Shown: in pieces, positions 6,618-41,065 of the stretch
Layout of the letters: every line of letters begins with the position of its first letter
Position numbering within the stretch: position 1 is the stretch's first letter
Source of the DNA: Acidobacteriota bacterium
GTDB lineage: Bacteria; Acidobacteriota; Thermoanaerobaculia; Multivoradales; J023
NCBI GenBank assembly: GCA_039194425.1
Contig: JBCCVZ010000022.1
Location: 48,451 to 112,450 of the forward strand
Length of the DNA: 64,000 nt
Direction: 5' to 3'
Made by a program: the position numbers and the translations under genes
Notes under the pieces: model-generated
The model's input: only the letters and a program-made list of their open reading frames with translations
Database searches by the model: none
What the model was told of the DNA's origin: nothing

Positions 6618-6657
6618 AATCGCCGTTGCCTGTCCGTCTCATCCCGCGGAGGGTTTG

Positions 6658-10877: not shown

Positions 10878-11027
10878 ACGCTCGTCGGTAGAACCGAGGA
10901 GCTCGCTTCAGTTTGCCTGGCGGGCTTTGGTCGGCGGCCTCGTACCTCCTGTCGAACTTCACCGGATGCCCGGCGGCGCGTGCCGCCGGACACGGACTTC
11001 AACTCTTCCTCGACAGGAGCGCTCCTC

Positions 11028-22587: not shown

Positions 22588-22747
22588 CGACTCTCTCCTC
22601 TCGTCGACTCGGTCGTAGAGATCTTTGGCAGCTTTTTTTCGCGACCTTCCATAGCCCGGCCCTCGCCCTCTCGCGACGGCCGAATCGCTTGAACTTTCTT
22701 CGGTGGAGGTCCGGCGCCCTCACGCGCACGGAGCTCGAGGAGGATCC

Positions 22748-23878: not shown

Positions 23879-23886
23879 CGCCGCCA

Positions 23887-26800: not shown

Positions 26801-27243
26801 CGGCCCTGCTCCTCGAACGGATCGTCCAGAGTCGGCAGCAGCTCGTCGAGATTGCGGATGCGCTGCGTGCGCGACGGCATCTCGGGCGAGGGGCCCTCGG
26901 GCGCCTCCGCCGCGACGCGGTGTCGCGCGAAGCGGAAGGTCGAGCGACCGATCGAGAATTGGCCGCCGACCTCGAGCGTCGCGGTCGACACCTGGCGCCC
27001 GTTGACGATCATCCGGTTGCTGCTGGCCTGGTCCTCCACCCGCAGCGTGCCGTCGTCGCCGAGGCGTACGACGACGTGACGACGCGACATCGCCGGGTCG
27101 AGCAAGCGCAGGTCGCAGTCGTGGCCGCGGCCGATCGACAGCGCGCCGTCGGCGAGCTGGATCCGCCGCTCGATCCACGAGCTGTCGGGACTGGCGGTGA
27201 CCGTCAGGTAGGCGCCGCCGCGGGCGGTCGTCGCGCGCGCCAT
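23887..27243 (-). CDS. NHLP/NHLM-type bacteriocin-export ABC transporter (permease + ATPase) with N-terminal FHA domain and cNMP-binding-like domain
   Basis: N-terminus: an FHA domain (SIGRGHDCDLRLLDPAMSRRHVVV...DQASSNRMIVNGRQV) then a cNMP-binding-like beta-roll. Then a 6-TM ABC exporter domain and an ATPase with Walker A GSSGSGKST, ABC signature LSGGQKQR and Walker B LLFDEATSALD. Its start is 1 nt after the stop of the upstream ABC gene. Confidence 0.9.
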   Translation of the reverse strand: MARATTARGGAYLTVTASPDSSWIERRIQLADGALSIGRGHDCDLRLLDPAMSRRHVVVRLGDDGTLRVEDQASSNRMIVNGRQVSTATLEVGGQFSIGRSTFRFARHRVAAEAPEGPSPEMPSRTQRIRNLDELLPTLDDPFEEQGRGLELTASAPLPLTDPDVSWWVLRGHVDLFAVPLVDGRPYGERTHVATVRAGGVFFHPDPQDYGDDDQVGFIAVGKAAAVREIGIDHVQVLVRRHRARVAQALDAWITALGSRLPRDRMPRERTVVRPTAEPQSVSGVLVGQGVTWIEVECPFFVRDETYQGPTPLFPLAPDDWLALETTARAVTARAWSTAEALVRREPWLALELYHRAFAASFLLQLKMGKLDDAVRLRQRAREWERVGDEALGAIKSVMGGTKQWRPRIHDEVPLEPLLEACRHLGRAQGFEVRPHPYHHGERKFDDALADIAVASGFRVRQIWLEDGWWTHEIGHFLAPRRDGKSVVVMLQGERSWWRRGVPTYTCIDPVTGEERQVDRALARELTGFGHVLYRPFPSDLNTLGARELGAFALRDLGAELRVIVAMGVGLGLLSMVAPFITGKIYDVALLQSETTMLLHLSLGLALAACATAAFQITQKIAVLRVQGKADYSAQAAVWDRLLELPVGFFHEFTAGDLSDRAGGVSKIRGLLARVGVSAILGSVASLFNAVQMGVYSWKLAVVAVLLTVAYVFGTWLINVTRVRLQRDEFELRGRIHGLMVQLIGGMAKLRVSGAEVHAFHVWAQRFARQRSVAFKSGHRGNWVAVVNAGYTTFTTLVLFFVMVQLKEGAAERGETFDLSTGDFLAFMAAFGIFSTAVQALGTASVDLLQVLPMFDRLRPVLQARPEVREGKMSPGALRGAIEISNLSFRYDPSGPPVLDNLSLSIPAAGSVAIVGSSGSGKSTLLRLLLGFEQPERGSILYDGQDLSMLDLRLLRQQLGVVLQDSKILPADILRNIVGASSRTEEEAWAAAAKAGLERDIRRMPMTIHTVISEGGGGLSGGQKQRLMIARALVNEPAILLFDEATSALDNETQLTVQKSLEALQVTRVVIAHRLSTIRNVETIFYLHEGKVAESGSYDELMARGGLFAAMAVRQELE

Positions 27244-27244
27244 C

Positions 27245-29497
27245 TCAGCCCTCTGCCTTCATCAAGCGGTAGTAGAGGCCCTTCTTCGCCAGCAGCTCGG
27301 CATGCGTGCCCGACTCGGCGCGCTGGCCCCGGTCCATGACGTAGATCTGGTCGCAGTCGCGGATCGTCGACAGGCGGTGCGCGACGATGATGCAAGTGCA
27401 GCCGCGGCGACGCAGCGCGTCGTCGATGCGCTGCTCGGTGATCGGGTCGAGCGCGCTGGTCGCCTCGTCGAGCACCAAGATGCTGGGATCGGCGACCAGA
27501 GACCGCGCGATCTCGAGGCGCTGGCGCTGGCCGCCGCTGAAGTTGTCGCCACCCTCCGCCACCCTGCCGTCGAGCATGCCCTCGCGACCGCTGACCATGG
27601 AGCGCAGCTCGGCGTCGTCGATCGCGGCCTGCAGCCGCGCGTCGCGCACGGTAGCGTCCCAGAGCGCGAGGTTGTCGCGAATGCTGCCCTCGAACATCAA
27701 GACCTCTTGGTCGACCATCGCCAGACTGTTGGTCAGGACCCGGCGCGGGATCTGCTCGCGCGGCACGTCGTCGAAGAGAATCTCCCCCTTCTGCGGCTGC
27801 AGCAGACCGGCGACCAGGCGCGCGACGGTCGACTTACCGCTGCCGCTGGCGCCGACCAGGGCGATGCGCTGCCCCGGCGTGACGACGAGCGAAAAGCCCT
27901 TGATCAGCGGCGGGTCGAACCGGCCGTAGCCGAAGGTGACGCCACGCAGCTCGACCTTGCCGGTGAGCTTGGCGCCCACATCGCGACCCAAGACGTCACG
28001 TTCCGCGACCCCGTCGCCGACGAGATCGCCGCCGGCCACATCGCCAAGCTGGATCTCCGGTGCGTAGCGGCCGACATCGTCGATGCGATTCATGTCGGCC
28101 TCGAGCTCCTGCAGCGCCGAGCCGAAGGACACCAGATTGGTGAGCGGCCGCGTGAACTGCGCGGCGAGCAGCTGGTAGGCGACGAGCTGGCCGACGGTGA
28201 GCGCACCCGCCATCACCTTCGAGCCACCGACGAAGAAGATCATCGCCGTGGTCAGCGCGGTGACCAGCGGCGGCACGATCGAGATCCAGTCGCCGAGGCG
28301 CTGCAGCTCCTGCTCGCTGCGCAGCGTCTTCGACTGGTAGCCGGCCCAGCGCGAGAAGAACTCGAGCTCATTGCCCGTGGCCTTGAGCGTCTCCATCATG
28401 CCCAGGCCGTAGCTCGCCGTCGACTGCAACTTGCCGCGGTCGGCGAGCAGTCGCTGGCTGGCGTCGCGGCGGGCGCGGCCAGCGAAGTGCAGCGCGGCGA
28501 CGTTCACCGCGGCGAGCGCCATCACCCAAAGCGTCAAGTCGAGGGCGTAGAGGCAGAGCAAGAGGGCGTAGAAGACCATCGTCAGGCAGTCGATGGCGGT
28601 GGTCGCCAGCCGGCCGGTGATCGTCTTCGCCACCTTGTCGTTCATCTGCACGCGCTCGGCGATCTCGCCGGCGCCGCGCTGCGCGAAGAAACCGACCGGC
28701 AAGCGCAGCAGGTGGCGCACGAACTCGGTCGAGGCGCCGAGCGCGAGGCGCGTCTCGAGCTTGATCAGCGCCCGCTCCTGCAGGTACGTGAGCACCATGC
28801 TGACGACGAAGGTGACCGCCATCGCGACGAGCAGCGGGTTGATCATGCGCTCGCGCTCCGCGATCAGATACTCGTCGACGAAGATCTTCGAGAACGCGGG
28901 AGCCAACAGCCCCGGCAACACCAGCGCCAGGCCGCACAGGACGATGAACGCCAGGGGCACGCGCGACGAGCTGATACGGCGCCAGATCGCCGCCACCAGG
29001 CTCCGTTTCTGGCCTCCAGGCTCGAAGCTCTCGCCCGGCGTGAAGGTGAGCACGACGCCGGAATAGGCGAGATCGAGCTCTTCGAGCGACACCGCGCGCG
29101 GGCCGCGCGCCGGATCGCTGAGCAGAGCCTTGCCCTTTTTGAACCCGCCCAGCACCACCCAGTGATTGCGATTCCAGAACAGGATCGCCGGGTAGTCGAG
29201 CTCGTAGAGGCTTTCGATCTTGGAGTAGCGGCGACCCGACGCCTCGAGGTCGTAGCGCCGCGCCGCCTCGACCATGTGCACCGCCTTGGTGCCGTCACGC
29301 GACACGCCGCAATCCTCGCGCAGCACCTCGAGCGGCACCACCCGACCGAAATGCTGCAGCACGATGCCGAGCGCCGCCGCGCCGCACTCGACGTTCTCCA
29401 TCTGGATCAGGGTCGGCAGATCGACATGGCGATCCGGCGGCGGAGCCAACGTCTCGCCGCCGGCCGCCGCCGCGGCCTGGGCTCCGATGGGTTCCAT
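27245..29497 (-). CDS. NHLP/NHLM-type bacteriocin-export ABC transporter with N-terminal C39 peptidase domain (leader peptide GG-cleaving exporter)
   Basis: C39 motif QMENVECGAAALGIVLQHFG (catalytic Cys) and an HW motif (NRNHWVV). TM domain, Walker A GASGSGKST, signature FSGGQRQR, Walker B LVLDEATSALD. I chose the start at MEPIGAQ, overlapping the HlyD stop (ATGA-type coupling). Confidence 0.9.
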   Translation of the reverse strand: MEPIGAQAAAAAGGETLAPPPDRHVDLPTLIQMENVECGAAALGIVLQHFGRVVPLEVLREDCGVSRDGTKAVHMVEAARRYDLEASGRRYSKIESLYELDYPAILFWNRNHWVVLGGFKKGKALLSDPARGPRAVSLEELDLAYSGVVLTFTPGESFEPGGQKRSLVAAIWRRISSSRVPLAFIVLCGLALVLPGLLAPAFSKIFVDEYLIAERERMINPLLVAMAVTFVVSMVLTYLQERALIKLETRLALGASTEFVRHLLRLPVGFFAQRGAGEIAERVQMNDKVAKTITGRLATTAIDCLTMVFYALLLCLYALDLTLWVMALAAVNVAALHFAGRARRDASQRLLADRGKLQSTASYGLGMMETLKATGNELEFFSRWAGYQSKTLRSEQELQRLGDWISIVPPLVTALTTAMIFFVGGSKVMAGALTVGQLVAYQLLAAQFTRPLTNLVSFGSALQELEADMNRIDDVGRYAPEIQLGDVAGGDLVGDGVAERDVLGRDVGAKLTGKVELRGVTFGYGRFDPPLIKGFSLVVTPGQRIALVGASGSGKSTVARLVAGLLQPQKGEILFDDVPREQIPRRVLTNSLAMVDQEVLMFEGSIRDNLALWDATVRDARLQAAIDDAELRSMVSGREGMLDGRVAEGGDNFSGGQRQRLEIARSLVADPSILVLDEATSALDPITEQRIDDALRRRGCTCIIVAHRLSTIRDCDQIYVMDRGQRAESGTHAELLAKKGLYYRLMKAEG

Positions 29498-30639
29498 CAG
29501 CTGAAGCCCAAGGTCTTCTTGACGTAGGGGATGACCAGCTCGATCGGCGCCCGCTCCCCCACCGTGATGCGCGCCGAGCACGGCGTATTGCTCTCGATGT
29601 CGAGCTCCTGACCCTTCGACGTCGTCCACTCGAACACGTCATCGCGGTCGGGGTCGGGGTCGATCACGACCTCGTACGGCGTACCCTCGATGAACTGCTC
29701 GACGAGCTGATCGTTGTTCAACGTCGAGCGCACCTGCTCCGGAGTCACCGGCTGGGCCGACACGGTCAGGACGACGCCGCGGATGTAGCCGTACTCCTCC
29801 GGCTTGATGGTGGACGGCGCGATGCGCACCGGCATGCCGGCCTCCGCCCGCTTGCCCTCGGCGAGCGCGACGTAGAGCACTAGCTGATACGGCTCGCCGG
29901 CGGCCTCGAGGTTGAGAATGCGGCCACCGGCATCGATCATCACGCCGTCGGTGACCAGCACCGCGGCGACCCGGCCGGCGACCGGACTGATCACCTCGGA
30001 GCCGTCTTTCTGGTCCGCCTGCAGCTGCTCGAGAGTGCGCTTCTCGTCGCGGATGCGGGCGGCGAACTCCTCTTCGCTCAGGTCGATCTGCAGCAGCTGG
30101 CCCTCGACCTGGGCGATCTCGCCCTCGATCGCCAGGATGTCCTGTCGCCGCGCGAGCCCTTTCGCCTGCAGCCCCTGCTTGGCGCGAAGGCGCTCCCGCA
30201 GGCCGCTCAGCTGGCGCTCGTAGGCACCGCGCTGGCGGCGCCAATCGGCCAGCTGAAGCAATCCCTGGCGCTCGAGATCACCGATGCGTTTCTCGGTGGC
30301 GTCGATCTGGTTCTGCAGCTCGGCGAGGTCGAGCGTAGCCACCACGTCGCCGGCGGCGATCGTGTCACCGACCTCGACCTGCACCTCGACGACACGGCCG
30401 GCGACCGGCGCTTGCACCGTGCCGACATTCTCGCCCTGGAGCAGCATGCCGACACCGTCGACCTCGATCGGCAGGCTGCCGAAGACGCTCCACGCCACCA
30501 CCGCCGCGAGCCCGGCGAGAATCGCCAGCAGCGCCGTCCAGCCGGCGGGCGAGGTCACCGTCATCGGTAGGTCGAGCTGCTCGGGCGAGGCCGAGCGCTC
30601 GAGCTCGGCCTTGCGCATGAGATCCTGCGGTCCGAGCAC
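29497..30639 (-). CDS. NHLM-bacteriocin-system secretion protein (HlyD-family membrane fusion protein)
   Basis: N-terminal TM anchor (WTALLAILAGLAAVVAW). Lipoyl-like hairpin motifs (GTVQAPVAGRVVEVQVEVGDTIAAGDVVATLD ... VISPVAGRVAAVLVTDG), a long coiled coil, and a C-terminal beta-domain. Confidence 0.85.
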   Translation of the reverse strand: MLGPQDLMRKAELERSASPEQLDLPMTVTSPAGWTALLAILAGLAAVVAWSVFGSLPIEVDGVGMLLQGENVGTVQAPVAGRVVEVQVEVGDTIAAGDVVATLDLAELQNQIDATEKRIGDLERQGLLQLADWRRQRGAYERQLSGLRERLRAKQGLQAKGLARRQDILAIEGEIAQVEGQLLQIDLSEEEFAARIRDEKRTLEQLQADQKDGSEVISPVAGRVAAVLVTDGVMIDAGGRILNLEAAGEPYQLVLYVALAEGKRAEAGMPVRIAPSTIKPEEYGYIRGVVLTVSAQPVTPEQVRSTLNNDQLVEQFIEGTPYEVVIDPDPDRDDVFEWTTSKGQELDIESNTPCSARITVGERAPIELVIPYVKKTLGFS

Positions 30640-30642
30640 GCC

Positions 30643-32655
30643 TCACGCTCCCCCGCCGCCCGCGGACTCAACCACCGGCACCTCCAGGCGACCTGCGGCG
30701 AAGCGTAGCTGCGCGTCGAGGATCGCCACCCGCTCGGCCACCGCCACCTGAGCTAGCCGCGCCGCGGTCAGCTGCTCTTCGGTGAGCAGCACGTCGACCA
30801 TCGTCTCCTCGCCGGCGCGGAACAGGCTACGGCTCGTGTCGAGCACCTTGCGCTGCGCCGCCACCGTGCGCTCGGCCTCAGCGAGCTCCGCGCGCGCCTC
30901 CCCGAGCGCCCGATGCGCGGCCTGGATCTGCAGCCGGATCGAGCGCTCGAGATCGTCCTCGGTCACCGCGCTGCGCACCATCGACGCCTCGGCCTGCAGC
31001 AGCTGACCGCGCGCCGCGCGGTTGCGCAGCGGCACCTTCCAGATGATGCGGAATCCGTAGCTCGGCCCCGCGACCTCGCCCTCCCAGGCATCGACCAGGC
31101 CGGCGAAGTCCCAGGCGCGCTCGTCGAAGCTCTCGTGCAACACGTTGTAGGAACCGAAGAGCGACAGGTCGATCTGGTGGCGCAGATTGAGCTCCGCCGC
31201 CTCGAGCAGAATGCGCGACGCCTCCGCCGCATGACGCGCAGCGCGCAGGTCGTCGCGCCGGGTCTCGATCTCGACCAGCCACTCAGCGGGCACCGCGTCG
31301 AGGGCTCCATCGGCCGCCTTCGGCGACACTTCGAGCGCTCCGTCGACGGCCACAGGCAGCGGCGCCGACGACGGCAGTCCGATCGCCAGCGCCAGCTGCT
31401 GGCGCGCCGCCACCCACGCCTGGCGCGCCGCCGCGATGTCGGCCCGCGCCTGGTCGGTACGCGCCGCCACCAGGCTGCGTTCGGCAGGCGCCAGCTCGTC
31501 GCCCTCGATCATCAGGTCGGTGAGCTCGAGCAGCTCGGTGCGCGCAGTGCCCGACGCCGACTGCCAGGCGACGCGCCGCTGAGCGGCAGCGACCCGCCAA
31601 TAGGCGTCTGTGGTCGCCAGCACCTGCTCCGCGGCGACGTGCAGGGCCAGCGCCTCGGCTGCGCGCAGGCCCGCCTCGGCCGCTCGCTCGGCCGCCGTCG
31701 CCGCGGTGCGCCCGCGCCCCTTGCCGAGAGGCATGGTCAGCTCGAGGCCGGCCTCACTGGTGAACAGGTTCGGCACGCGCGAATCGCCGAGGTCGGGATC
31801 GTGCGGCTTGCCCTCGTAGTTCTCTTCGGTGTTCATCACCGCCAGGAAGGGCGACGCCACGAGGCCGCTGCGCAGCCGCGCCTCGTAAGCCAAGCGGAGA
31901 TCGAAGCGCACCTGCTCCACCACCTCCGGCAAGTCGCCGAGGCGGGCGCGCTGGGCGCGCAGCGCGTCGGCCGTGCGCAGCAGCAGGTCGGCGGTGGTGC
32001 GCAGACGGGTCGCGATGCCGGTCTCGATCACCCGCCGCACACCGGCGCGCAGGTCGTCATCGAGCAGCTCGTTCAGATCGAGCCCGGCGGCGGCTCCACC
32101 GGGCAGAATCAAGCCGGCGATCTGGCCGCCGAGGCCGCGGCAGACGACGATCGAGCCGGTCTCAGTCTCGACGATCAGCGGATCCTCGGCGAGCTCGTCG
32201 CACTGGTCGCGGATCTCGATCGGCCGGTCGCCGACGTTCTGCCCGGCGAGACGGGCGAGAATCTGATCGCCGGTGAGCTCGAGCGCGCCGGCGGACAGCT
32301 CGAGCAACTGGCGACGTTCGATCTCGCGCTGCAGGCCCTCGCCGATCAGCTGCTGGCGGTCGAGCTGGTAGCCGAGCTCGAGCTGCAGGCGATTGTCGAA
32401 GAGCCCGCCCTCCTCGAGCCACAGTCCACGACGCTCGGCGACGTCTTCAGCGGCGCGCCGGATCTCGGGATCGAGCGCGAGGGTGCGCTCGATGGCGTCT
32501 TCGAGGGTCAGTGGTGGGCCGAAGGCGCTCGGCTCGAAGACCGATTCGGGAGAGTCCTCGAGTGAGGGTTCCAGGGCGGGCTCGGTCGTCCACGCGGCAC
32601 CGGGCAGGACCGCCAGGAGGAGCAGGCAGGCCAGGATGTTCGCTCGATGCATCAC
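30643..32655 (-). CDS. TolC-family outer membrane efflux protein (copy 1)
   Basis: Signal peptide MMHRANILACLLLLAVLPGAAW. Two-fold internal repeat of long helical hairpins and beta-strands. The LTLEDAIERTLALDPEIRRAAEDV start is typical of outer-membrane-factor proteins. Confidence 0.8.
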   Translation of the reverse strand: MMHRANILACLLLLAVLPGAAWTTEPALEPSLEDSPESVFEPSAFGPPLTLEDAIERTLALDPEIRRAAEDVAERRGLWLEEGGLFDNRLQLELGYQLDRQQLIGEGLQREIERRQLLELSAGALELTGDQILARLAGQNVGDRPIEIRDQCDELAEDPLIVETETGSIVVCRGLGGQIAGLILPGGAAAGLDLNELLDDDLRAGVRRVIETGIATRLRTTADLLLRTADALRAQRARLGDLPEVVEQVRFDLRLAYEARLRSGLVASPFLAVMNTEENYEGKPHDPDLGDSRVPNLFTSEAGLELTMPLGKGRGRTAATAAERAAEAGLRAAEALALHVAAEQVLATTDAYWRVAAAQRRVAWQSASGTARTELLELTDLMIEGDELAPAERSLVAARTDQARADIAAARQAWVAARQQLALAIGLPSSAPLPVAVDGALEVSPKAADGALDAVPAEWLVEIETRRDDLRAARHAAEASRILLEAAELNLRHQIDLSLFGSYNVLHESFDERAWDFAGLVDAWEGEVAGPSYGFRIIWKVPLRNRAARGQLLQAEASMVRSAVTEDDLERSIRLQIQAAHRALGEARAELAEAERTVAAQRKVLDTSRSLFRAGEETMVDVLLTEEQLTAARLAQVAVAERVAILDAQLRFAAGRLEVPVVESAGGGGA

Positions 32656-32659
32656 GGCC

Positions 32660-34774
32660 TCACTCGGAGCGGTCGAGTCGTGAGCTCGAGGGCGACGGCA
32701 AGGCGGTCAGCGACGCGCTCTCGACCGCGTAGCCCGACGCGTCCGACGCGATCAAGGTGCCGGTCTCGAAGCGCAGGCGGGCGAGCAGACCGGCGATCTC
32801 GAGCCGCGCGTCGATCGCGGCCAGCCCGGCTTCGGTCTGCTGCTCCTCGGTGACGATCAGATCGAGCAGCGTCGACTCGAGAGCTCCGAAATTCGTCTCC
32901 TCGGCGCTGTAGGCATCGACGAAGCCGGCCGACGCGCGCTCCGCGTAGCCCAGCCTCTCGACCGCCTCGGCCAGCTCGCCGAGCGCCTGGCGGGTGGCCA
33001 GCCCGATCGTTCGCTCGAGGTCGGCGCGGTCGATCCGATCGCGCTGCGCCAGCGCCTGCGCCTGCGCCAGGCGCCCCTCTCGCTCGTTGTTGCCGTAGAT
33101 CTTCTCGTAGCTGGCGGCGACGCGGTAGCTCGGCGCCTGCCACTGGTCGGTGGCATTCGAGAACGAGTCTTCGCCCACCGCCGTCGCCCACAGGCGCAGC
33201 GCCAGGTCGAGGCGATCGCGCGTCGCCAGGCGCGCGCCCGCGACCCGAAGCTCGCTCGCCTCGAGGAAGGCACGGGCGGCCTCGAGGTCGGCGCGTCGCC
33301 GCGCCACCACCAGCCGCTCGGCCTCGTCGGCGAGCGCACGCACCGCGGCGCCCTGCGGCGGGGCCGGGAACTCGGAAGCGGCCCGTGGAACAGTGACTTC
33401 GCTCGGTGCGGCGACGCCGAGCACCTGGGTCAGCGCGAGGCGCGTCGCCACCACCTCACGTCGCGCGGCGCTGAGCGCCGTCTCGGCGCGCGCCAGGCCC
33501 GCGTCGGCGCGCGCGCGCTCGGCCGGGATCAGCTCGTCGCCGGCGATCAAGTCGTCGGTGTAGTCTACGATGGTGCGCTGCCGCTTGACGGACGCCTCGA
33601 GCAGCTCGACGCGCTCCTCGGCAGCGCGCAGGTCCCAATAGGCGAGCACTGTCTCGAGCACGCGCTCGGCGGTGACATGGGCGAGTAGATGACGAGTCGC
33701 CTCGACTTCGCGGGCGGCAGCACGCTCAGTGGCGGCCACTTCCTCCGCGCCGCTGCCGCGCAGCAGCGGCACGTTGAAGTCGAAGCCGACACGCACCGTG
33801 TAGAGGTCGGGGATGTTCTTGCCGCCGAAGTCGACGAAGCGCTCGCGCGGAATGCCGAAGTCGACGACTTGTTGGCCGGTGTCGTCGAGCACCGGCTCGA
33901 AGAAGCCGTTGCGCTTGCCGAGATACTGCGTCGCCTCGTAGTCGGCGTCGACGAAGGGAGCGAAGAAGAGGCCGCTGCGGAAGAGTTTCTCGAGCCGCAG
34001 GTCGATGCCGGCAGTGTCGAAGTCCTCGCGCTCAGGGGTCTCGCCGATGCGTCCGAGCAGCGCCGTCGACTCGGCGCACGCCTCGTCGTTGGCGTCACGT
34101 GAGGCGATGGTTTCGGCCAGCTCCTGGTTCAGCCGCAGCGAGCGCTCGTTGAGCAAGAACTCGGCCTCGGACGGCGTCGCGTTCTGGATCAACGTCTCGA
34201 GCGCGCGCAGCTCGGCGTCGAAGATCGCGTCGTTGGTGATCGCGACGCCGCCGACCGTGGCGATGGCGGCCTCGAGCTCGGTGATCTTGGCGCGGTCGGC
34301 GTCGGCACCGGTGCAGGTCTCCCCCTGCAGCCGGCGCAAATCGTCGCGCCGCTCCTGTTCGCGTCGCCGCACGCTCTCGCGCAGCTCGAGCTCCTCGTGC
34401 TCGTAGAACGCCTCGCCGGTGAGTGTCCAGTCGAAGAGGCCGCGCGCCTCCTGCTCGAGGCCCAGCTGGAAGGCGACGTCGGCGGCCTGCAGGCGGATCG
34501 CCGGATCGCTGCCGAGGGTCTGCTCGACCGCCGCGAGCAAGGTCAGGTCGCCGTCCTCGAGGACCGCGGGAGCCCACGGCGCGAGGTGAATCGAAGCCTC
34601 GGATTCCGGACCGGCCGGGTCTTCGGACCGGACGGGCATGTCTTTGGCGGGCTGCTCTTCGGCATGCGCGGGCGAAGCCCAGCCGGCGAGGGTGACCCAC
34701 GCGGCGAGGGCGACGCCCGCGGTGAGGGCGACCCAAGGGGCGGGACGCGACGAGACGGGACGCGACGGGATCAT
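32660..34774 (-). CDS. TolC-family outer membrane efflux protein (copy 2)
   Basis: The internal start MIPSRPVSSRPAPWVALTAGVALAAWVTLAGWASPAHA (signal peptide) coincides with the stop of the upstream GNAT gene. Outer-membrane-factor-like LTLLAAVEQTLGSDPAIRLQAADV... and a repeated helical/beta architecture. The N-terminal 292 aa of the ORF-track call are Arg-rich junk. Confidence 0.75.
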   Translation of the reverse strand: MIPSRPVSSRPAPWVALTAGVALAAWVTLAGWASPAHAEEQPAKDMPVRSEDPAGPESEASIHLAPWAPAVLEDGDLTLLAAVEQTLGSDPAIRLQAADVAFQLGLEQEARGLFDWTLTGEAFYEHEELELRESVRRREQERRDDLRRLQGETCTGADADRAKITELEAAIATVGGVAITNDAIFDAELRALETLIQNATPSEAEFLLNERSLRLNQELAETIASRDANDEACAESTALLGRIGETPEREDFDTAGIDLRLEKLFRSGLFFAPFVDADYEATQYLGKRNGFFEPVLDDTGQQVVDFGIPRERFVDFGGKNIPDLYTVRVGFDFNVPLLRGSGAEEVAATERAAAREVEATRHLLAHVTAERVLETVLAYWDLRAAEERVELLEASVKRQRTIVDYTDDLIAGDELIPAERARADAGLARAETALSAARREVVATRLALTQVLGVAAPSEVTVPRAASEFPAPPQGAAVRALADEAERLVVARRRADLEAARAFLEASELRVAGARLATRDRLDLALRLWATAVGEDSFSNATDQWQAPSYRVAASYEKIYGNNEREGRLAQAQALAQRDRIDRADLERTIGLATRQALGELAEAVERLGYAERASAGFVDAYSAEETNFGALESTLLDLIVTEEQQTEAGLAAIDARLEIAGLLARLRFETGTLIASDASGYAVESASLTALPSPSSSRLDRSE

Positions 34775-35856
34775 CAGGAACTCCTCTCTGGCGATGCAAG
34801 ACGGCTCTGGGGGTCGTGGGGCTCGACCTGCCGCCTCACCACGCGCGTCTCGCCGAGAAAGCTGGCGATCGGCGCCAGGCGCCGGCGGATGAACTGCACC
34901 ATCGGCGCGTAGTCGAAGGGCGTGATGAACGAACACTCGCGGCAGGTCCCATGCACATCGCGCAAGACCGCGTCGTAAAGTGGCACGATGCGGCCACGTC
35001 GGCTGAGGCTCGGGTGCATGAAGCTGCAGGTGAAGCGCACGATGTCGGGCGTCGGTCGATGGGTGATCACCCAGCCGACGATCCGGCCGCGCCAGCGCGC
35101 GGCGACGCTCGACGGATCGAAGCCGTCGCGGTCGAAGCGCCAGGGCACGAGCAGCGGCTCGATCCAGGGATTCTGCTCGTGCGACGCGCGCAGTGCGGCC
35201 TTCTCGTCGGCACCGATTTCCGACCAGCGCACAATCTCGAGACCGCGCCGCTGCGCACGCAGCCGACGCTCGAGCAGCAGGTCGGAGCAGAAGGCCGCAC
35301 GCGGCGTGAAGCGCACGAGCAGAGAGCGCGCCGCGGGAGGAGTCCAGCCGCGGCGCGCGAAGATCCGCTCGAGCCAGTCGCTCGGGGCCCCTCCCGCCGG
35401 GGCGGACGTCGTGTCGAAGAACGCTGTGCCGACGGGCGCCTTGCAGACGGACGCCGCGCCGACGGACGCCGTATAGACCGCCTCGAGGGAACCGCCACCG
35501 CGGTGCGCGACCTCGTCCTCGAGCGCCGCGACCAGGGCGCCACCGACACCACGCCGCCGGTGCGCGCGCGCCACGTAGAGCGAGAGCAGGCGCGGCACAG
35601 CGGGCCCGAACTGCGCCACCTCGGCGGTCGTCGGCCTCGAGGCCGGCCACTCGGCGAGGACAAGGCCGGCCGGCGCGTCGCCGATCCTCGCCACCAGGGC
35701 GATCGGAGCGATCGTCCGCTGGTCGCCAGCGGCGGGATCGCGCGCCATCGGCTCGAGCGCGAGCAGGCGCGTGTAGGCGGGAAAAGTCATCGCCCGGAAC
35801 GGCGTCACGCTGTCCGGCCGGAGCTCAGCGATCGTCACCTCGGAGTCTGCGGTCAT
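34774..35856 (-). CDS. GNAT-family N-acetyltransferase (tandem GNAT-like halves) embedded in the lanthipeptide operon
   Basis: The internal start MTADSEVTIAELRP... gives 361 aa. The acetyl-CoA-binding motif region is LSLYVARAHRRRGVGGALVAALEDEVAHRGG (Q/RxxGxG/A). A second GNAT-like half follows. It overlaps lanM by about 32 nt (alternatively it starts at the next Met, about 35790). Confidence 0.6.
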   Translation of the reverse strand: MTADSEVTIAELRPDSVTPFRAMTFPAYTRLLALEPMARDPAAGDQRTIAPIALVARIGDAPAGLVLAEWPASRPTTAEVAQFGPAVPRLLSLYVARAHRRRGVGGALVAALEDEVAHRGGGSLEAVYTASVGAASVCKAPVGTAFFDTTSAPAGGAPSDWLERIFARRGWTPPAARSLLVRFTPRAAFCSDLLLERRLRAQRRGLEIVRWSEIGADEKAALRASHEQNPWIEPLLVPWRFDRDGFDPSSVAARWRGRIVGWVITHRPTPDIVRFTCSFMHPSLSRRGRIVPLYDAVLRDVHGTCRECSFITPFDYAPMVQFIRRRLAPIASFLGETRVVRRQVEPHDPQSRLASPERSS

Positions 35857-38800
35857 CCTCGTCTCCCTCACCGGCGTTCTGGCGTCGTCGCAGCTCCGAA
35901 GGCAGCTCGAGCACCAGGACATCCGGCAGCCGGACCCCGGCGATGCGCAGCAGGTGCCAGCCGATGCCGGAGACGCCGCGCAGGAAGCTCTCGCTCTGCC
36001 ATCGATCGCGCAAGAAACCATCGCGCAGCCGAAACCGCGATCGGCTCTCGGCGCGCGCGAGGAGGCGTGTGGTGAGGTCGGCGGCGGCACGCCGAGCGGC
36101 CGGATGTCGAAGACGCTCGGCGGCGCCGAGCAGCGCCGCGGCGCGCCCGGCGAGGCCGCAGCACAGGTGGTCGACCGCGGCCAGCGGCGTGTCGCGCGTC
36201 GTGGCGAGCGCGGCGTCGACCTCAGAGGTCCAGGCGTCGTCGCGCCACGACGCGTCGAGCGTCGAGCGCGCCGCCAGGATGCCGGGGGCGCCGTGACACC
36301 AGGCCACCCGGTAGGCCATCCGGGTCGCCGAATCAGGCTCGGAAAGCAAAAGCGGCCAGTTGCGCTCGGCGGGGTCGAAGAGCGAGCGCTCCCAGGCCAG
36401 ACCCGCCGTCGCCGCCAACGCGAGCCCGCGGTCGGCGTCACCGTCGACAGACGCCAGCGCCGTCAAGGCACGCACGACGCCGGCCGCGCCATGCGCCATG
36501 CCGGCGAGCGGTCTGCCCTGCCCTCGCGGTGAGAGATCGCTGCACGGAGCATCACCGAACCATGCAGCGCCCGCCGAGCCGACGCGGTCTTGGCGCGTGC
36601 GCAGCCGCGTACCGGCTTGTCGAGCCAACGCCAGAGCCTCGTCGCGCAGCCCGCTCGCAACGTCGGCGCCCTCGGTCACAGCAAGCATGCCGAGCAGCGC
36701 GCCGGCGGCACCACCGACCAGATCGCATCCGACCCGCGATGCCTGCTCACCGGGTGCGAGACGTTCGGCGAGCTCCGCCAACACCGGGCGCAGCAGACGC
36801 TCGTCGGGCCCCTCATCGAGCAATTGCGCGCTCCACGTTGCGGCATAGAGCGCCGAGCCGAGGCCGTCAAAGCCGCCGATCGACGACACCTCGTTCCAGC
36901 GTGTCGGCCGCTCGGCGAGGCCGACGAGGAGAGAGCGCGCCGCCCCGGACGCGGAGTCTGCGAGCTCGCGCTCGCCTGCGGTGCCGCGCTCCGAGGTCGC
37001 GCGGGCAACGCCGGCGAGGAAGAGCGCGACGCCGAGGGCACCGCGCCCAAGAGTCGGATCGTCCTCTGGCTTGATCGACCGCGACGCCTCGAGCACCCGC
37101 GCGCCGAGCCCGACGGCCCAGCGCCACGCACGCTCCTCGAGCGCCGCCGGCGGCGCCGTGCGCAACGCGGCGACAAAGCCATAGCGCACCGGCGGGCGCA
37201 GCGCGAGGTCGATCACCTCGAGCTGGCGCGCGAGGTCGTCGGCGCTCAGCGCGCGCAGCCGGGCGCGAACGGCATCGAGCGGCGACCGATGGAACAGCGT
37301 GACCTCACCGCCGTCGACCGTGGGCACGCCGACCCCGTCACCCGCGACCGAGAGGTGCGGAATGTCACCGGCGAGCAATGCGGCGCGCTCGGTGGCGGCC
37401 AGCGGCCAGACCTGCGGTCGCCGACCGCGCGCCACCAGCGGCGCGAGCAAGGTCTCGGCGATCAGGCCGGTGGCGAGCCCCGAGCGCTGATTGCGCGCCC
37501 GACGCGCCAGGGTGAGCGCGCGCCCGTAGGCCTGGCTTGGCCGCAGCAGGACACGCACCCGGGCCGTCGCGACCTCGTCGAGCGCCTCGTCGATGAACGC
37601 ATCACGCTGTGCCTGCAGGCACTCGTACGCATCAGTGAAGCCTGCTTTCAACTCGTCGCCGAAGGCCGCCGGGTCGAGAAGGTCACCGTCGAGCCGAGGC
37701 GTGTTGTCGCCGCGGCGACCGCGCACGGCGCGCGCTTCGACTGCGATCGCATCGCCACCGAGACCGCTCCAGGCGGCGCCGACTCCGACGCCCGGACGCA
37801 GCCGCGCGGGGCGGAGCCCACCCAGGTCGCGCGGACCCTGGGTCTCGTCTCCACCGTCCGTGTCGCCCTCGGCCGGCAGCAACAGGAGGCCCGAATGCAG
37901 GCACGAGGCTCCGCCCTCGGCTGTCGTCGTGCCGGTCGACCCGGAAGCGGTCGATCCTGCGGCGGTCGACCACATCACGGCCTCGGGCTGGAAGAACATC
38001 TCGCCGTCGACCACCACCGGCCCCTCGGCTGTCGCCACCACATTCTCGGCGTGCAGGTCGCGCGCACGGAGCGCATACGCCAACGCCACCAGGGCGCCGG
38101 CGCGACGAACGTAGCGCACCGCGGCGGCACGGTCGTCCAGCGGCGCGGCGACGATCGTTTCCACCCAACCGTAGCCCGCGCGCTCGAGCACGCGGGGTGC
38201 CGGCGGAAGGTCGCAGCCGAGGCTCCGCAAAGTGGCGACCAGGCGCTCGAAGACGGCGTCGGCGCCGACGTCGCGCGGCTTGTAGACCAGCCGCCCGCCG
38301 CCGGTGAAGCGCAGCCGGCGGACACTCCGGCCGCCGTGATGACCGTCCGACAGGCCACCGTCGACGCTTTCGATGCGCAGCGCCGGCGACTCCCCGCCGC
38401 CCACGAGCTCTGGCCACAGCTCGAGCAAGGCCCGCTCGTCGACCTCGAGGCGCTCGAGCATCTCGAGCAAAGCGTCGGTCCACCGCGCGACATGCTCCGC
38501 AGCTTGCCGCGCGAGGACCGGAAAGCGTCCGTAGAGTCGGAGCGGCTCGTGGAGCACGGCCTCGACGAAGCGACGGTAGGCACCTGAGGGATCGGGCGCA
38601 CGGCCCTCTTCGAGCTGACGGTCTTCCTCGAAGAGAAGATAGGCGGCGAGCGCGGCGAGCTCGCCCAGTTCTTCGTGCAGCGCGTCGACGAGATGAATGC
38701 GTGCCGACGCACTGAGCCGGCGATCCCAATCCGCGCGGGCGGCGACCAGACGCTGCTCGGCGAGCGCCAGCCACGGCCGCCAGAGGGTTGCGAAGGGCAC

Positions 38801-39232
38801 CGAGGAGGCCGCGTCGCAGGCGATGGAGCGCACCGCGGCGGCGCGCGCGGCAAAGCTCTGTGACAGCTCGACGAAGCACTGGAAGTCGCGATGCCAGGCG
38901 ACCGGCGCCGGCGCTCCCTGGTCACCGACGCCGAAGGCACGGGCCGCGGCCTCGAGGCTGGACCCGTCCCAGGAGAGACGCTTCGCGAGCTGTGTGAGAT
39001 CGCCGCCGGCGACCGCCCGGGCCCACGGCTCGAGCGCACGACGTTGCGCTGGGGACAGTGCGGCGACCTGCGCCGCGAGGCTGTGTGGGGGGCTGTCCGG
39101 AGGCGTCGAGGGGGGCTGTGATGGGTCTGCGGAAGACGACGCGGAGGCAGAACGGGCGAGACGCTCGTGCAGCGTCTCGCCCCGGGCGAAGACCTCCGAC
39201 AGCTCGGCGTGCGGTGTCGCGGTGCGAGCCAT
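35825..39232 (-). CDS. lanM: Class II lanthipeptide synthetase LanM (bifunctional dehydratase/cyclase)
   Basis: N-terminal LanM dehydratase region (GGRLVYKPRDVGADAVFERL..., DLHAENVVA). C-terminal LanC-like cyclase with all three zinc-ligand motifs GMAHGAAG, AWCHGAPG and LCCGLAG, plus the terminal GVSGIGWHLL. I chose the start at MARTATPHAELS (ATG after GGAG) to avoid overlap with the precursor gene. Confidence 0.88.
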   Translation of the reverse strand: MARTATPHAELSEVFARGETLHERLARSASASSSADPSQPPSTPPDSPPHSLAAQVAALSPAQRRALEPWARAVAGGDLTQLAKRLSWDGSSLEAAARAFGVGDQGAPAPVAWHRDFQCFVELSQSFAARAAAVRSIACDAASSVPFATLWRPWLALAEQRLVAARADWDRRLSASARIHLVDALHEELGELAALAAYLLFEEDRQLEEGRAPDPSGAYRRFVEAVLHEPLRLYGRFPVLARQAAEHVARWTDALLEMLERLEVDERALLELWPELVGGGESPALRIESVDGGLSDGHHGGRSVRRLRFTGGGRLVYKPRDVGADAVFERLVATLRSLGCDLPPAPRVLERAGYGWVETIVAAPLDDRAAAVRYVRRAGALVALAYALRARDLHAENVVATAEGPVVVDGEMFFQPEAVMWSTAAGSTASGSTGTTTAEGGASCLHSGLLLLPAEGDTDGGDETQGPRDLGGLRPARLRPGVGVGAAWSGLGGDAIAVEARAVRGRRGDNTPRLDGDLLDPAAFGDELKAGFTDAYECLQAQRDAFIDEALDEVATARVRVLLRPSQAYGRALTLARRARNQRSGLATGLIAETLLAPLVARGRRPQVWPLAATERAALLAGDIPHLSVAGDGVGVPTVDGGEVTLFHRSPLDAVRARLRALSADDLARQLEVIDLALRPPVRYGFVAALRTAPPAALEERAWRWAVGLGARVLEASRSIKPEDDPTLGRGALGVALFLAGVARATSERGTAGERELADSASGAARSLLVGLAERPTRWNEVSSIGGFDGLGSALYAATWSAQLLDEGPDERLLRPVLAELAERLAPGEQASRVGCDLVGGAAGALLGMLAVTEGADVASGLRDEALALARQAGTRLRTRQDRVGSAGAAWFGDAPCSDLSPRGQGRPLAGMAHGAAGVVRALTALASVDGDADRGLALAATAGLAWERSLFDPAERNWPLLLSEPDSATRMAYRVAWCHGAPGILAARSTLDASWRDDAWTSEVDAALATTRDTPLAAVDHLCCGLAGRAAALLGAAERLRHPAARRAAADLTTRLLARAESRSRFRLRDGFLRDRWQSESFLRGVSGIGWHLLRIAGVRLPDVLVLELPSELRRRQNAGEGDEDDRRLRGDDR

Positions 39233-39260: not shown

Positions 39261-39587
39261 TCAGAAGAGACTGGCCTGAATCTCGACCACGGTGCTGGCC
39301 GTGGCGTCGCTGCAATTGGCGTCACCCTTCACGGTGTTGCCGCCGGCGAGCGACTCGAGATCAGCGTTCGACAGCTCGGCGCCTTCCGGGATCATGTACG
39401 GCAGCACGACGTAGGCCTGATCCGGCGTCTCTTCGAGCACGTCGATCTTCAGATCGTCCGGCAGATCCATCTGGAACTGCTCCGCGACCACACCCTTCGG
39501 ATTGCGCTTCAGAGCCGAGCGGTAGTCCGGGTTCTGGGTCGAAAACTTGATCAGAAGATCGAGCATTTCACCACGGGTCATCTTCAT
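39261..39587 (-). CDS. lanA: NHLP-family (nitrile hydratase-like leader peptide) lanthipeptide precursor, LanA
   Basis: ATG 7 nt after AAGGAGG. Leader MKMTRGEMLDLLIKFSTQNPDYRSALKRNPKGVVAEQFQMDLPDDLKIDVLEETPDQAYVVLPYMIPEGAELSNADLESLAGG, with the NHLP hallmark block VLEETPxxxYVVLP and a terminal double-Gly. The 25-aa core NTVKGDANCSDATASTVVEIQASLF is rich in Ser/Thr with one Cys. Confidence 0.85.
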   Translation of the reverse strand: MKMTRGEMLDLLIKFSTQNPDYRSALKRNPKGVVAEQFQMDLPDDLKIDVLEETPDQAYVVLPYMIPEGAELSNADLESLAGGNTVKGDANCSDATASTVVEIQASLF

Positions 39588-39644: not shown

Positions 39645-39663
39645 GAGCACGATGCCTGCCAAC
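39645..39663 (-). promoter_or_regulatory. Candidate sigma-54 (-24/-12) promoter upstream of lanA
   Basis: The minus strand reads TTGGCAGGCATCGTGCT, i.e. TGGCAG-N5-GTGCT against the consensus TGGCAC-N5-TTGCW. The GG to GC spacing is exact, and the element lies about 60-75 nt upstream of the lanA ATG and immediately downstream of the sigma-54 activator gene. Confidence 0.4.
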
Positions 39664-39797: not shown

Positions 39798-40964
<1,167 letters not shown>

Positions 40965-41065
40965 GCCTCCTATCGCGTCGGCTCTCCGGGCAGAGGCTCA
41001 CGCCGAGTCATGATCACTGTGTGCAGGGGTTTGGTCTCTCTCCGAGATCGCGTATATTGCGCCGC

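What the first reader, a model, noticed from the sequence alone, without database searches (positions are those of the whole stretch)
39261..39587. Precursor peptide: NHLP leader ending in LESLAGG, with a 25-aa core containing a single Cys
The leader carries the diagnostic VLEETPDQAYVVLPY block and an acidic ELSNADLESLAGG end. The core NTVKGDANCSDATASTVVEIQASLF has seven Ser/Thr but only one Cys. So at most one (methyl)lanthionine ring can form, with several free Dha/Dhb residues, or the peptide may be cleaved or processed differently from what I infer. There is a single precursor gene; no further copies are visible in the window.
Basis: seen in the sequence. Interest (0 to 1): 0.7.

Follow-up and report, generated by a model that had tools for sequence, protein, structure and literature searches.

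The report
Lipidated one-ring lanthipeptide precursor (selidamide-type)

Summary
Window 39261-39587 (minus strand) encodes a 108-aa NHLP precursor (TIGR03793 55.5 bits, cutoff 50.9). It has an 83-aa leader ending LESLAGG and the 25-aa core NTVKGDANCSDATASTVVEIQASLF. The core has one Cys and six Ser/Thr, not seven. It is the only precursor in the window.

This GNAT belongs to the same family as cyanobacterial GNATs sitting beside NpuA-like precursors (profile-profile E 8e-80). The order sigma-54 activator, precursor(s), LanM, GNAT, two TolC-like proteins, HlyD, C39-ABC recurs in dozens of Acidobacteriota genomes and some proteobacterial ones.

Among 61 distinct GNAT-linked cores, 60 have one Cys and all have a Lys before it. 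The only conserved Ser/Thr lies 5-11 residues after the Cys (usually 7-10). LanM has the ProcM-type three-Cys zinc site.

Best reading: a Lys-type selidamide, acylated on Lys4, with one methyllanthionine ring, probably Cys9 to Thr16. It would be cleaved after GG and exported. No chemistry was tested. I rate it a new member of a known kind, of moderate interest.

The parts
39261..39587 (-). Precursor gene, 108 aa plus stop. Leader is 39339-39587 (83 aa, NHLP type, ends LESLAGG). Core is 39264-39338 (25 aa).
   Evidence: TIGR03793 55.5 bits, above the 50.9 cutoff. 19 homologues at 55-82% identity.
39327..39329 (-). Codon for core Lys4, the only Lys in the core and the predicted N-epsilon acyl acceptor.
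   Evidence: Lys is invariant in 20/20 close homologues. All 61 GNAT-linked cores have a Lys before the Cys. In characterised selidamides the most N-terminal Lys/Orn is acylated.
39312..39314 (-). Codon for core Cys9, the single thiol available for the (methyl)lanthionine ring.
   Evidence: Invariant in 20/20 homologues. 60 of 61 family cores have exactly one Cys.
39291..39293 (-). Codon for core Thr16, the predicted Dhb partner of Cys9 (inferred).
   Evidence: Invariant in 20/20 homologues. It is the only Ser/Thr column conserved across 50 distinct family tails, at 94%.
39647..39661 (-). Sigma-54-type -24/-12 promoter element TGGCAGGCATCGTGC, 74 nt upstream of the precursor ATG.
   Evidence: It is the only match to TGGCA-N7-TGC on either strand of the 64 kb. 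The same element lies 72-132 nt upstream of the first precursor gene in most related loci.
39798..40964 (-). Sigma-54 enhancer-binding protein (AAA+ activator) with no receiver domain, directly upstream of the precursor.
   Evidence: Pfam Sigma54_activat 178 bits. Its position is conserved in related loci.
35825..39232 (-). LanM class II lanthipeptide synthetase, 1135 aa. It carries kinase-like motifs DLHAEN (392) and VDGE (408), and cyclase motifs AHG (913), WCHG (978) and CCG (1024, window 36155-36163).
   Evidence: TIGR03897 489.7 bits, above the 304 cutoff. DUF4135 plus LANC_like domains. Aligns to LicM2 (PDB 6st5) at E 3.8e-40, where LicM2 'LCHG' corresponds to window 'LCCG'. Motif positions.
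34774..35856 (-). Tandem-GNAT acyltransferase, 360 aa. Its start overlaps the last 32 nt of lanM. The CoA P-loop RRRGVG lies in the N-terminal half.
   Evidence: Gene call. Pfam Acetyltransf_1 36.8 bits. 70 homologues. AF2 model pLDDT 90.2. Top PDB folds are tandem GNATs. BLASTP E 5e-42 and hhalign E 8e-80 to cyanobacterial NpuN-type GNATs.
32660..34774 (-). TolC-like outer-membrane efflux protein 1, 704 aa.
   Evidence: Pfam OEP. Position conserved.
30643..32655 (-). TolC-like outer-membrane efflux protein 2, 670 aa.
   Evidence: Pfam OEP 73.8 bits. Position conserved.
29497..30639 (-). HlyD-type periplasmic adaptor of the NHLP bacteriocin export system.
   Evidence: TIGR03794 258.6 bits, above the 156.2 cutoff.
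27245..29497 (-). C39-peptidase / permease / ATPase ABC exporter, predicted to cleave after Gly-Gly.
   Evidence: TIGR03796 977.5 bits, above the 853.3 cutoff. Peptidase_C39 101.8 bits. Catalytic Cys in NVECGAAAL.
23887..27243 (-). Second ABC exporter subunit, with an N-terminal FHA domain and about 300 further residues ahead of the transporter core.
   Evidence: TIGR03797 811.3 bits, above the 709.4 cutoff. FHA 46.2 bits at aa 36-99.
40904..42378 (+). Divergent pair of putative regulators: a cNMP-binding + FHA protein (40904-41890) and a STAS-domain protein (41887-42378).
   Evidence: The same pair lies beside the cassette in L002, L003 and L006, and a homologue of the cNMP/FHA protein beside it in L004/L005 and in many genome loci.

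Best explanation
This is the precursor of a Lys-type selidamide, that is, a ribosomal lipo-lanthipeptide. The proposed pathway has five steps. (1) Transcription starts from a sigma-54 promoter and is driven by the adjacent activator. (2) The LanM dehydrates Thr/Ser in the 25-aa core. Its three-Cys-zinc cyclase domain adds the single Cys9 to one dehydrobutyrine to give one methyllanthionine ring. The most likely ring is Cys9 to Dhb16, with the Cys N-terminal to its partner. (3) The tandem GNAT, encoded immediately after LanM and overlapping its stop codon, transfers a fatty acyl group to the side-chain amine of Lys4 while the leader is still attached. The donor is presumably an acyl-CoA. (4) The C39 domain of the ABC exporter cuts after LESLAGG. 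(5) The ABC1/ABC2 pair, the HlyD adaptor and the TolC-like proteins export the peptide. With Lys4 acylated, the product would be net negatively charged (three Asp/Glu against one Lys). It would carry a conserved amphipathic tail, TVVEIQASLF. Shown here: the genes, their family memberships, motif integrity, conserved gene order and conservation patterns. Inferred: the acylation, its site and chain length, the ring partner, the number of dehydrations, and the biological activity.
For: The precursor is NHLP type with a GG end. The LanM passes the TIGR03897 cutoff and its catalytic motifs are intact. It has the CCG motif, as do 30 of 35 related LanMs. According to PMC13060382, this ProcM-type zinc site goes with cyclisation in either direction.

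The GNAT gene overlaps the lanM stop and holds that position in relatives. Its model is a confident tandem GNAT (pLDDT 90.2), and the top PDB hits are tandem GNATs including VipF. This matches the published description of NpuN, including a P-loop only in the N-terminal half. It is homologous end to end with cyanobacterial GNATs that sit beside Nif11 precursors with NpuA-like cores (K1, T9, T12, C14, S18, C20, S23, C25). BLASTP gives 29% identity over 329 aa at E 5e-42. The profile-profile comparison gives probability 100% and E 8e-80 over 295 columns.

Hubrich et al. state that the selidamide GNAT clade includes Acidobacteria, and that kamptornamide and phaeornamide each have one MeLan ring, with phaeornamide's running Cys4 to Thr7. 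Among the family cores, 60 of 61 have one Cys and 61 of 61 have a Lys before the Cys. Seven have no Ser/Thr before the Cys. A Ser/Thr 5-11 residues (usually 7-10) after the Cys is conserved. No arginase turned up among the scanned ORFs, which fits a Lys acceptor rather than ornithine. The export trio TIGR03794/03796/03797 all pass their cutoffs.
Against: Nothing chemical was tested. I could not obtain the sequences of the characterised enzymes KspN, PhaN or NpuN. The link to them therefore runs through cyanobacterial homologues identified by gene context and precursor pattern. Nostoc punctiforme PCC 73102 was not named among the listed hits.

Identity to the cyanobacterial GNATs is only 28-31%, so the acyl-donor preference cannot be transferred. 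The acceptor Lys is at core position 4, whereas characterised selidamides use position 1 or 2. KspN acylated non-native positions with under 50% conversion. The window GNAT also carries a unique insertion of about 28 aa, modelled with low confidence. Thr2 is conserved in 19 of 20 close homologues, so a Thr2-Cys9 ring is not excluded for this subclade.
Confidence: 0.68

Rival explanations
1. This is a plain class II lanthipeptide. LanM alone matures the core into one ring, perhaps Thr2-Cys9, plus free Dha/Dhb. The GNAT would be unrelated, or an immunity or detoxifying enzyme.
For: The LanM and precursor are clearly paired. Thr2 is conserved in 19 of 20 close homologues. Nostolysamide C is bioactive without its acyl group, and GNATs often serve in resistance.
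Against: The GNAT overlaps lanM and keeps that position across dozens of species-level genomes in several phyla. It belongs to the RiPP-associated tandem-GNAT family found next to NpuA-like precursors. A Lys before the Cys is universal, 61 of 61. Seven family cores have no Ser/Thr before the Cys.
Confidence: 0.12
2. The GNAT modifies the peptide, but not as in selidamides. It could add a short acetyl group rather than a fatty acyl. Or it could acylate the new N-terminal alpha-amine after leader removal, as in lipolanthines and goadvionins.
For: Pfam sees only a generic acetyltransferase domain. NpuN accepts acetyl-CoA in vitro. Other lipidated RiPPs are acylated at the N-terminus after leader removal.
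Against: Leader removal here is coupled to export by the C39-ABC transporter, so a free N-terminus should not exist in the cytoplasm. Hubrich et al. found no export signal in the selidamide N proteins and inferred that they act inside the cell; I did not run a signal-peptide check on the window GNAT. All three characterised relatives act on side chains of leader-bound precursors and selected C10-C16 acyl groups in vivo. The conserved Lys is hard to explain under N-terminal acylation.
Confidence: 0.12
3. The cluster is decayed or silent in this genome and makes no product.
For: The source is a metagenome-assembled genome, so expression is unknown. The GNAT has an unusual insertion of about 28 aa. 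The cyanobacterial producers of known selidamides did not yield product in culture.
Against: All nine cassette ORFs are intact, with overlapping start and stop codons. Catalytic motifs are preserved in LanM, C39 and the GNAT P-loop. A sigma-54 promoter is present. The core and enzymes are conserved among relatives.
Confidence: 0.05

Closest known systems
Nostolysamides (npu cluster, Nostoc punctiforme PCC 73102; PMC8784127, PMC13060382)
   Same: A ProcM-type (three-Cys) LanM plus a tandem GNAT acylating a core Lys directly. No arginase. A 25-aa core. GG cleavage by a C39-ABC exporter. A single precursor type per LanM. The GNAT family is shared (hhalign E 8e-80 to GNATs beside NpuA-like precursors).
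   Different: NpuA has a Nif11 leader, four Cys and four rings, and is acylated at Lys1. Here the leader is NHLP type, there is one Cys and so at most one ring, and the Lys is at position 4. Here there are also two TolC-like genes and a sigma-54 activator. GNAT identity is only about 29%.
Phaeornamide (pha cluster, Pseudophaeobacter arcticus; PMC8784127)
   Same: NHLP leader with GG. A single MeLan ring in which the Cys lies N-terminal to the Thr (Cys4 to Thr7). The acylated residue lies N-terminal to the ring. A Gram-negative producer with a peptidase-containing exporter.
   Different: Phaeornamide's acceptor is a hydroxylated ornithine, made from Arg by an arginase and then a hydroxylase. 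Its ring spans four residues. Here the acceptor would be Lys, no arginase or hydroxylase was found, and the predicted ring spans eight residues.
Kamptornamide (ksp cluster, Kamptonema sp. PCC 6506; PMC8784127, PMC13647313)
   Same: NHLP leader, single MeLan ring and C12 side-chain acylation by a GNAT. The paper places that GNAT in the subclade that also holds acidobacterial members.
   Different: The acceptor is ornithine at position 1, which requires an arginase. The ring is Thr11 to Cys19, in the conventional direction. The cluster has no dedicated exporter.
Prochlorosins / ProcM
   Same: A three-Cys zinc site (CCG) in the cyclase domain, long NHLP/Nif11-type leaders, and GG cleavage.
   Different: ProcM serves many hypervariable cores. 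Here there is one precursor, and the core is at least as conserved as the leader (0.685 versus 0.656 pairwise identity). A GNAT is also present.
NHLP bacteriocin export system of Haft et al. 2010 (TIGR03793/03794/03796/03797)
   Same: All four models are matched above their curated cutoffs.
   Different: This cassette adds two TolC-like genes and an FHA-domain extension on the second ABC subunit.

Membership tests
NHLP leader peptide RiPP precursors (TIGR03793) | Leader matches the nitrile-hydratase-like model above the curated cutoff | tested here: met
   55.5 bits against a cutoff of 50.9, E 3.9e-15, model positions 1-77 of 77. Pfam NHase_alpha 33.3 bits against 27.2.
NHLP leader peptide RiPP precursors (TIGR03793) | Leader ends in a double-glycine cleavage motif | tested here: met
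   The leader ends ELSNADLESLAGG, with Leu at -4, -7 and -12. GG is invariant in 20/20 homologues.
NHLP leader peptide RiPP precursors (TIGR03793) | Linked HlyD / C39-ABC / second-ABC export trio | tested here: met
   TIGR03794 scores 258.6, TIGR03796 scores 977.5 and TIGR03797 scores 811.3. All exceed their cutoffs.
Class II lanthipeptides | Bifunctional LanM (DUF4135 dehydratase plus LanC-like cyclase) adjacent to the precursor | tested here: met
   TIGR03897 scores 489.7 against a cutoff of 304. Both Pfam domains are present. Matches LicM2 (6st5) at E 3.8e-40.
Class II lanthipeptides | Catalytic residues present in both LanM domains | tested here: met
   Motifs DLHAEN, VDGE, AHG, WCHG and CCG are all found. 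This is a sequence-level test only.
Class II lanthipeptides | Thioether (Lan/MeLan) crosslink in the mature peptide | not testable with these tools
   The core has one Cys and six Ser/Thr, so a ring is possible. The chemistry was not observed.
ProcM-type LanM clade | Three-Cys zinc ligand set (CCG in place of CHG) | tested here: met
   Window 'HLCCG' aligns with LicM2 'LCHG'. 30 of 35 related LanMs have CCG. The criterion comes from PMC13060382.
ProcM-type LanM clade | One enzyme serving many diverse precursor cores | tested here: not met
   The window holds a single precursor. Where relatives have several copies, the cores are near-identical. NpuM is the same exception.
Selidamides (side-chain fatty-acylated RiPPs) | RiPP-associated tandem GNAT encoded with an NHLP/Nif11 precursor | tested here: met
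   The gene overlaps lanM. The fold is a tandem GNAT. It belongs to the same family as GNATs beside NpuA-like precursors: BLASTP E 5e-42 and hhalign E 8e-80.
Selidamides (side-chain fatty-acylated RiPPs) | Placement in the same clade as the characterised enzymes KspN, PhaN and NpuN themselves | not tested
N. punctiforme was not named among the hits. The paper reports acidobacterial members in the KspN subclade.
Selidamides (side-chain fatty-acylated RiPPs) | Lys (or Arg plus an arginase) near the N-terminus of the core as acyl acceptor | tested here: met
   Lys4 is invariant in 20/20 homologues. 61 of 61 family cores have a first Lys at position 1-6, before the Cys. No arginase was found among the scanned ORFs.
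Selidamides (side-chain fatty-acylated RiPPs) | Fatty acyl group on a Lys/Orn side chain of the product | not testable with these tools
   Requires co-expression and MS/MS.

The most novel reading that the evidence does not exclude
The acidobacterial clade may make a structurally distinct selidamide subclass. It would be a net negatively charged 25-mer, acylated on an internal Lys4. It would have one large reverse-direction ring (Cys9 to Dhb16) and a conserved strand-like C-terminal tail. Three features point away from a diversifying antibiotic and towards a conserved physiological role, such as a signal, a surfactant or a surface-active morphogen. First, the core is as conserved as the leader. 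Second, duplicated precursor genes encode the same core. Third, the cassette is wired to a sigma-54 activator, a cNMP/FHA/STAS module and an FHA-tagged exporter. In sister clades the predicted ring carries a D-x-D-G motif (CNDSDGAMNT). That raises the possibility of ribosomal mimics of calcium-dependent lipopeptides, but the window's own peptide lacks this motif.
Probability: 0.15. Interest if true: 0.6.

Novelty: new member of a known kind. Interest (0 to 1): 0.36.

Why it matters
Selidamides are the only known ribosomal peptides with side-chain fatty acylation, and only three have been characterised, from cyanobacteria and one alphaproteobacterium. This locus belongs to a large, conserved and uncharacterised branch. 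GNAT relatives were confirmed at 116 places in a one-genome-per-species collection, most of the 80 listed being Acidobacteriota. The phylum is abundant, mostly uncultured, and has almost no known natural products.

The branch offers a minimal three-gene system: precursor, LanM and GNAT. The predicted acceptor is an internal Lys, and the single ring is probably reverse-direction. Both features are useful for engineering lipopeptides. The unusually conserved core and the dedicated sigma-54 and FHA regulatory wiring also give a handle on what these peptides do for the producer. That question is still open even for the nostolysamides.

Tried and rejected
1. I searched the window for further precursors by tblastn, a leader HMM run with --max, a Nif11 leader query and a regex for double-Gly leaders. 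Only one spurious, non-precursor regex hit appeared, at 10859-11122.

2. I looked for a peptide arginase, hydroxylase, LanJ/LanD or radical-SAM partner among 31 larger ORFs. None was found. ORF 22373-23890 has no family hit and a GC-by-codon-position pattern typical of a non-coding frame, so I did not count it as a gene.

3. I tried to obtain the KspN, PhaN and NpuN sequences. The PNAS supplements are not held. The last large protein search, seeded with the Nostoc sp. FACHB-152 GNAT, did not name N. punctiforme among its hits. The link to characterised enzymes therefore rests on gene context and on precursor cores that match the published NpuA residue positions.

4. I considered the C-terminal tail as a mimic of the outer-membrane-protein beta-signal. 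The hydrophobic register (positions 2, 4, 6, 8 from the C-terminus) does not fit the usual 1, 3, 5, 7, 9 pattern, so I dropped the idea.

5. I considered a Ca-binding DxDG motif. It occurs only in sister clades, not in this core.

6. Literature searches found no report of an acidobacterial selidamide.

Full report
**Observation**

- Its ATG at 39587 follows a GGAGG ribosome-binding site, and the stop is TGA.
- The 108-aa product is MKMTRGEMLDLLIKFSTQNPDYRSALKRNPKGVVAEQFQMDLPDDLKIDVLEETPDQAYVVLPYMIPEGAELSNADLESLAGG followed by NTVKGDANCSDATASTVVEIQASLF.
- It passes NCBI's curated NHLP model (TIGR03793, 55.5 bits against 50.9, E 3.9e-15, full model length) and Pfam NHase_alpha.
- Leu at -4, -7 and -12 fits the double-glycine leader pattern.
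- The start codon is secure. 17 of 19 homologues also begin MKMTRGEM or a one-residue variant of it, and the other two begin at the second Met.
- One correction is needed. The core has six Ser/Thr (T2, S10, T13, S15, T16, S23), not seven. The single Cys is C9.
- No second precursor exists in the 64 kb.
- An identical protein is already annotated at NCBI as an NHLP RiPP precursor from an Acidobacteriota MAG.

**Surroundings**

The gene heads a minus-strand operon.

| Window coordinates | Product |
|---|---|
| 39798-40964 | sigma-54 activator |
| 39261-39587 | precursor |
| 35825-39232 | LanM (TIGR03897, 489.7 bits) |
| 34774-35856 | 360-aa GNAT |
| 32660-34774 | TolC-like protein 1 |
| 30643-32655 | TolC-like protein 2 |
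| 29497-30639 | HlyD (TIGR03794) |
| 27245-29497 | C39-ABC exporter (TIGR03796) |
| 23887-27243 | second ABC subunit (TIGR03797) with an N-terminal FHA domain |

Its ATG lies 32 nt inside the end of lanM, and its stop overlaps the next start. That layout is the signature of a co-translated operon member.

**The GNAT**

The GNAT has 70 homologues at 35-59% identity. A scan of one genome per species confirmed relatives at 116 places. Most of the 80 listed are Acidobacteriota (Thermoanaerobaculia, Vicinamibacterales). Some are Lysobacteraceae or Rhodanobacteraceae, Deltaproteobacteria, a Chthoniobacter, or cyanobacteria.

The order activator, precursor (1-4 copies), LanM, GNAT, OEP, OEP, HlyD, ABC recurs across these loci.

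An AlphaFold model built on 29 sequences is confident (pLDDT 90.2, pTM 0.84). It shows two GNAT halves. The only poorly modelled stretch is a window-specific insertion at residues 135-155. The best PDB matches are tandem GNATs: 2wpw, VipF and MshD, at 11-17% identity. The CoA P-loop (R-x-x-G-x-G, here RRRGVG, with Arg100 and Gly103 invariant) is in the N-terminal half only. This is just what van der Donk's group describes for NpuN.

**Link to selidamides**

Hubrich et al. (PMC8784127) defined selidamides as NHLP/Nif11 RiPPs in which a GNAT fatty-acylates a Lys or ornithine side chain. These usually also carry LanM-made rings.
- Kamptornamide and phaeornamide each have exactly one MeLan ring. 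Phaeornamide's runs Cys4 to Thr7.
- Their GNAT clade is reported to include acidobacterial members.

Among my loci, Aliinostoc (L083) and Nostoc sp. FACHB-152 (L085) carry LanM, GNAT and Nif11 precursors. The 25-aa cores there (KAHTCPIDTRFTFCVFISECWGSVC and KGRSCPSDTRFTFCVLISSCWGSAC) put K1, T9, T12, C14, S18, C20, S23 and C25 exactly where the papers place them in NpuA.

The window GNAT aligns to the L085 GNAT over 329 residues (29% identity, E 5e-42). A profile of 29 acidobacterial-type GNATs aligns to a profile of 19 cyanobacterial ones with probability 100% and E 8e-80 over 295 columns. I could not obtain KspN, PhaN or NpuN themselves. Membership of their clade is therefore inferred, not shown.

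**What the cores say**

I extracted 61 distinct cores from GNAT-linked NHLP precursors.
- 60 have exactly one Cys.
- All 61 have a Lys before the Cys, with the first Lys at position 1-6.
- Seven have no Ser/Thr before the Cys at all, for example KQDIEAECTGFGGQVTVTQINL, FLDKKVRCSAKQLGFASVVKVSL and LGDKAKCSAKMSSIINISAG.
- When the sequences are aligned from the Cys onward, a single column is Ser/Thr in 47 of 50. The other three have it two residues later. That column is followed by an alternating hydrophobic tail such as TVVEINASLF.

The single Cys is therefore the family norm, not an anomaly. If the ring is conserved across the family, it must join the Cys to the downstream Thr, which here means Cys9 to Thr16. 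The LanM carries the ProcM-type CCG zinc site, as do 30 of 35 related LanMs. That class of enzyme is known to cyclise in both directions. In the closest 20 homologues, K4, G5, A7, C9, T16, I20 and A22 are invariant and T2 is present in 19 of 20. A Thr2-Cys9 ring therefore remains possible for this subclade.

Unusually for a lanthipeptide, the core is as conserved as the leader (pairwise identity 0.685 against 0.656). Multi-copy relatives also repeat the same core.

**Regulation**

TGGCAGGCATCGTGC at 39647-39661 (minus strand) lies 74 nt upstream of the ATG. It is the only TGGCA-N7-TGC match on either strand of the window. Near-consensus TGGCAC-N5-TTGC or -CTGC elements lie 72-132 nt upstream of the first precursor gene in most related loci. 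Together with the adjacent activator, this makes a sigma-54 promoter likely.

**Mechanism and confidence**

The best-supported reading is a Lys-type selidamide. LanM makes one MeLan ring, the GNAT acylates Lys4 on the leader-bound peptide, the C39 domain cuts after GG, and the product is exported through the ABC/HlyD/TolC-like system.
- I put 0.68 on the overall class.
- I put about 0.5 on the specific Cys9-Thr16 ring.
- Chain length and activity are unknown.
- Rival readings are an unacylated lanthipeptive, acetylation or N-terminal acylation, and a silent cluster. Each is less likely, for the reasons given in their entries.

**Novelty**

No paper in the searchable library describes an acidobacterial selidamide. 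The kind of system, however, is known, and the clade was noted bioinformatically in 2022. I rate this a new member of a known kind, with moderate interest.

Noticed in passing
window 23887-27243 (-), 40904-41890 (+), 41887-42378 (+): FHA domains appear twice around the cassette. One is at the N-terminus of the second ABC exporter subunit, about 415 aa ahead of the TIGR03797 region. The other is in a divergent cNMP-binding protein that is followed by a STAS protein. The cNMP/FHA + STAS pair is called beside the cassette in L002, L003 and L006, and a homologue of the cNMP/FHA protein lies beside it in many other relatives; L006 also has a Ser/Thr kinase and a SpoIIE phosphatase nearby. This suggests phospho-threonine / partner-switching control of production or export.
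   Followed up: partly
window 30643-34774 (-): Two tandem TolC-like genes of 704 and 670 aa lie inside the RiPP operon. By my recollection that is longer than a typical TolC; no comparison was run here. Both are conserved in relatives. Why two are needed is unexplained.
   Followed up: partly
window 35383-35466 (-), GNAT residues about 131-158: The window's GNAT has an insertion of about 28 aa (SVGAASVCKAPVGTAFFDTTSAPAGGAPS) that is absent from all 28 aligned relatives. It is modelled with pLDDT below 50.
   Followed up: partly
L009, L010, L011, L012, L016, L018, L021, L022, L029 (precursor cores): Sister-clade cores carry D-S-D-G inside the predicted Cys-to-Thr ring (for example CNDSDGAMNT). 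From memory, this resembles the Asp-X-Asp-Gly calcium-binding motif of daptomycin-type lipopeptides. The window's core (CSDATAST) lacks it.
   Followed up: no
L053 and L059: Some relatives have four precursor copies with very long cores of 59-72 aa. In these, Lys1 is separated from the conserved DTYTCNTSQGGQNTRVEFNAGVTLK module by a Gly-rich spacer.
   Followed up: no
L082 (Candidatus Wallbacteria): A GNAT of the same family sits beside three NHLP-like precursors whose cores have Lys/His-rich starts, Ala/Val-rich tails and no Cys. No LanM was detected in that locus. [quoted passage not shown]
   Followed up: no
window 39798-40964 (-): The sigma-54 activator has only about 37 residues before its AAA+ domain, so there is no receiver or other sensory domain. 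No Pfam DNA-binding domain was detected in its C-terminal 100 aa or so.
   Followed up: no
window 20977-22587 (-), 42395-44029 (-), 61050-63428 (-), 6355-9885 (+): Neighbouring genes are an autotransporter with a Big_1 domain, a choice-of-anchor I protein, a penicillin-amidase-family hydrolase (605 bits) and a TPR-CHAT protein. A CHAT protein also lies near the cassette in L002. No link to the peptide was established.
   Followed up: no
window 33-2702 (+) and 2808-5531 (+): A valyl-tRNA-synthetase-type gene (381 bits) is preceded by a long ORF with only a weak, partial class-I tRNA synthetase match (83.9 bits). This may be a degenerate paralogue or an overlapping-frame artefact.
   Followed up: no
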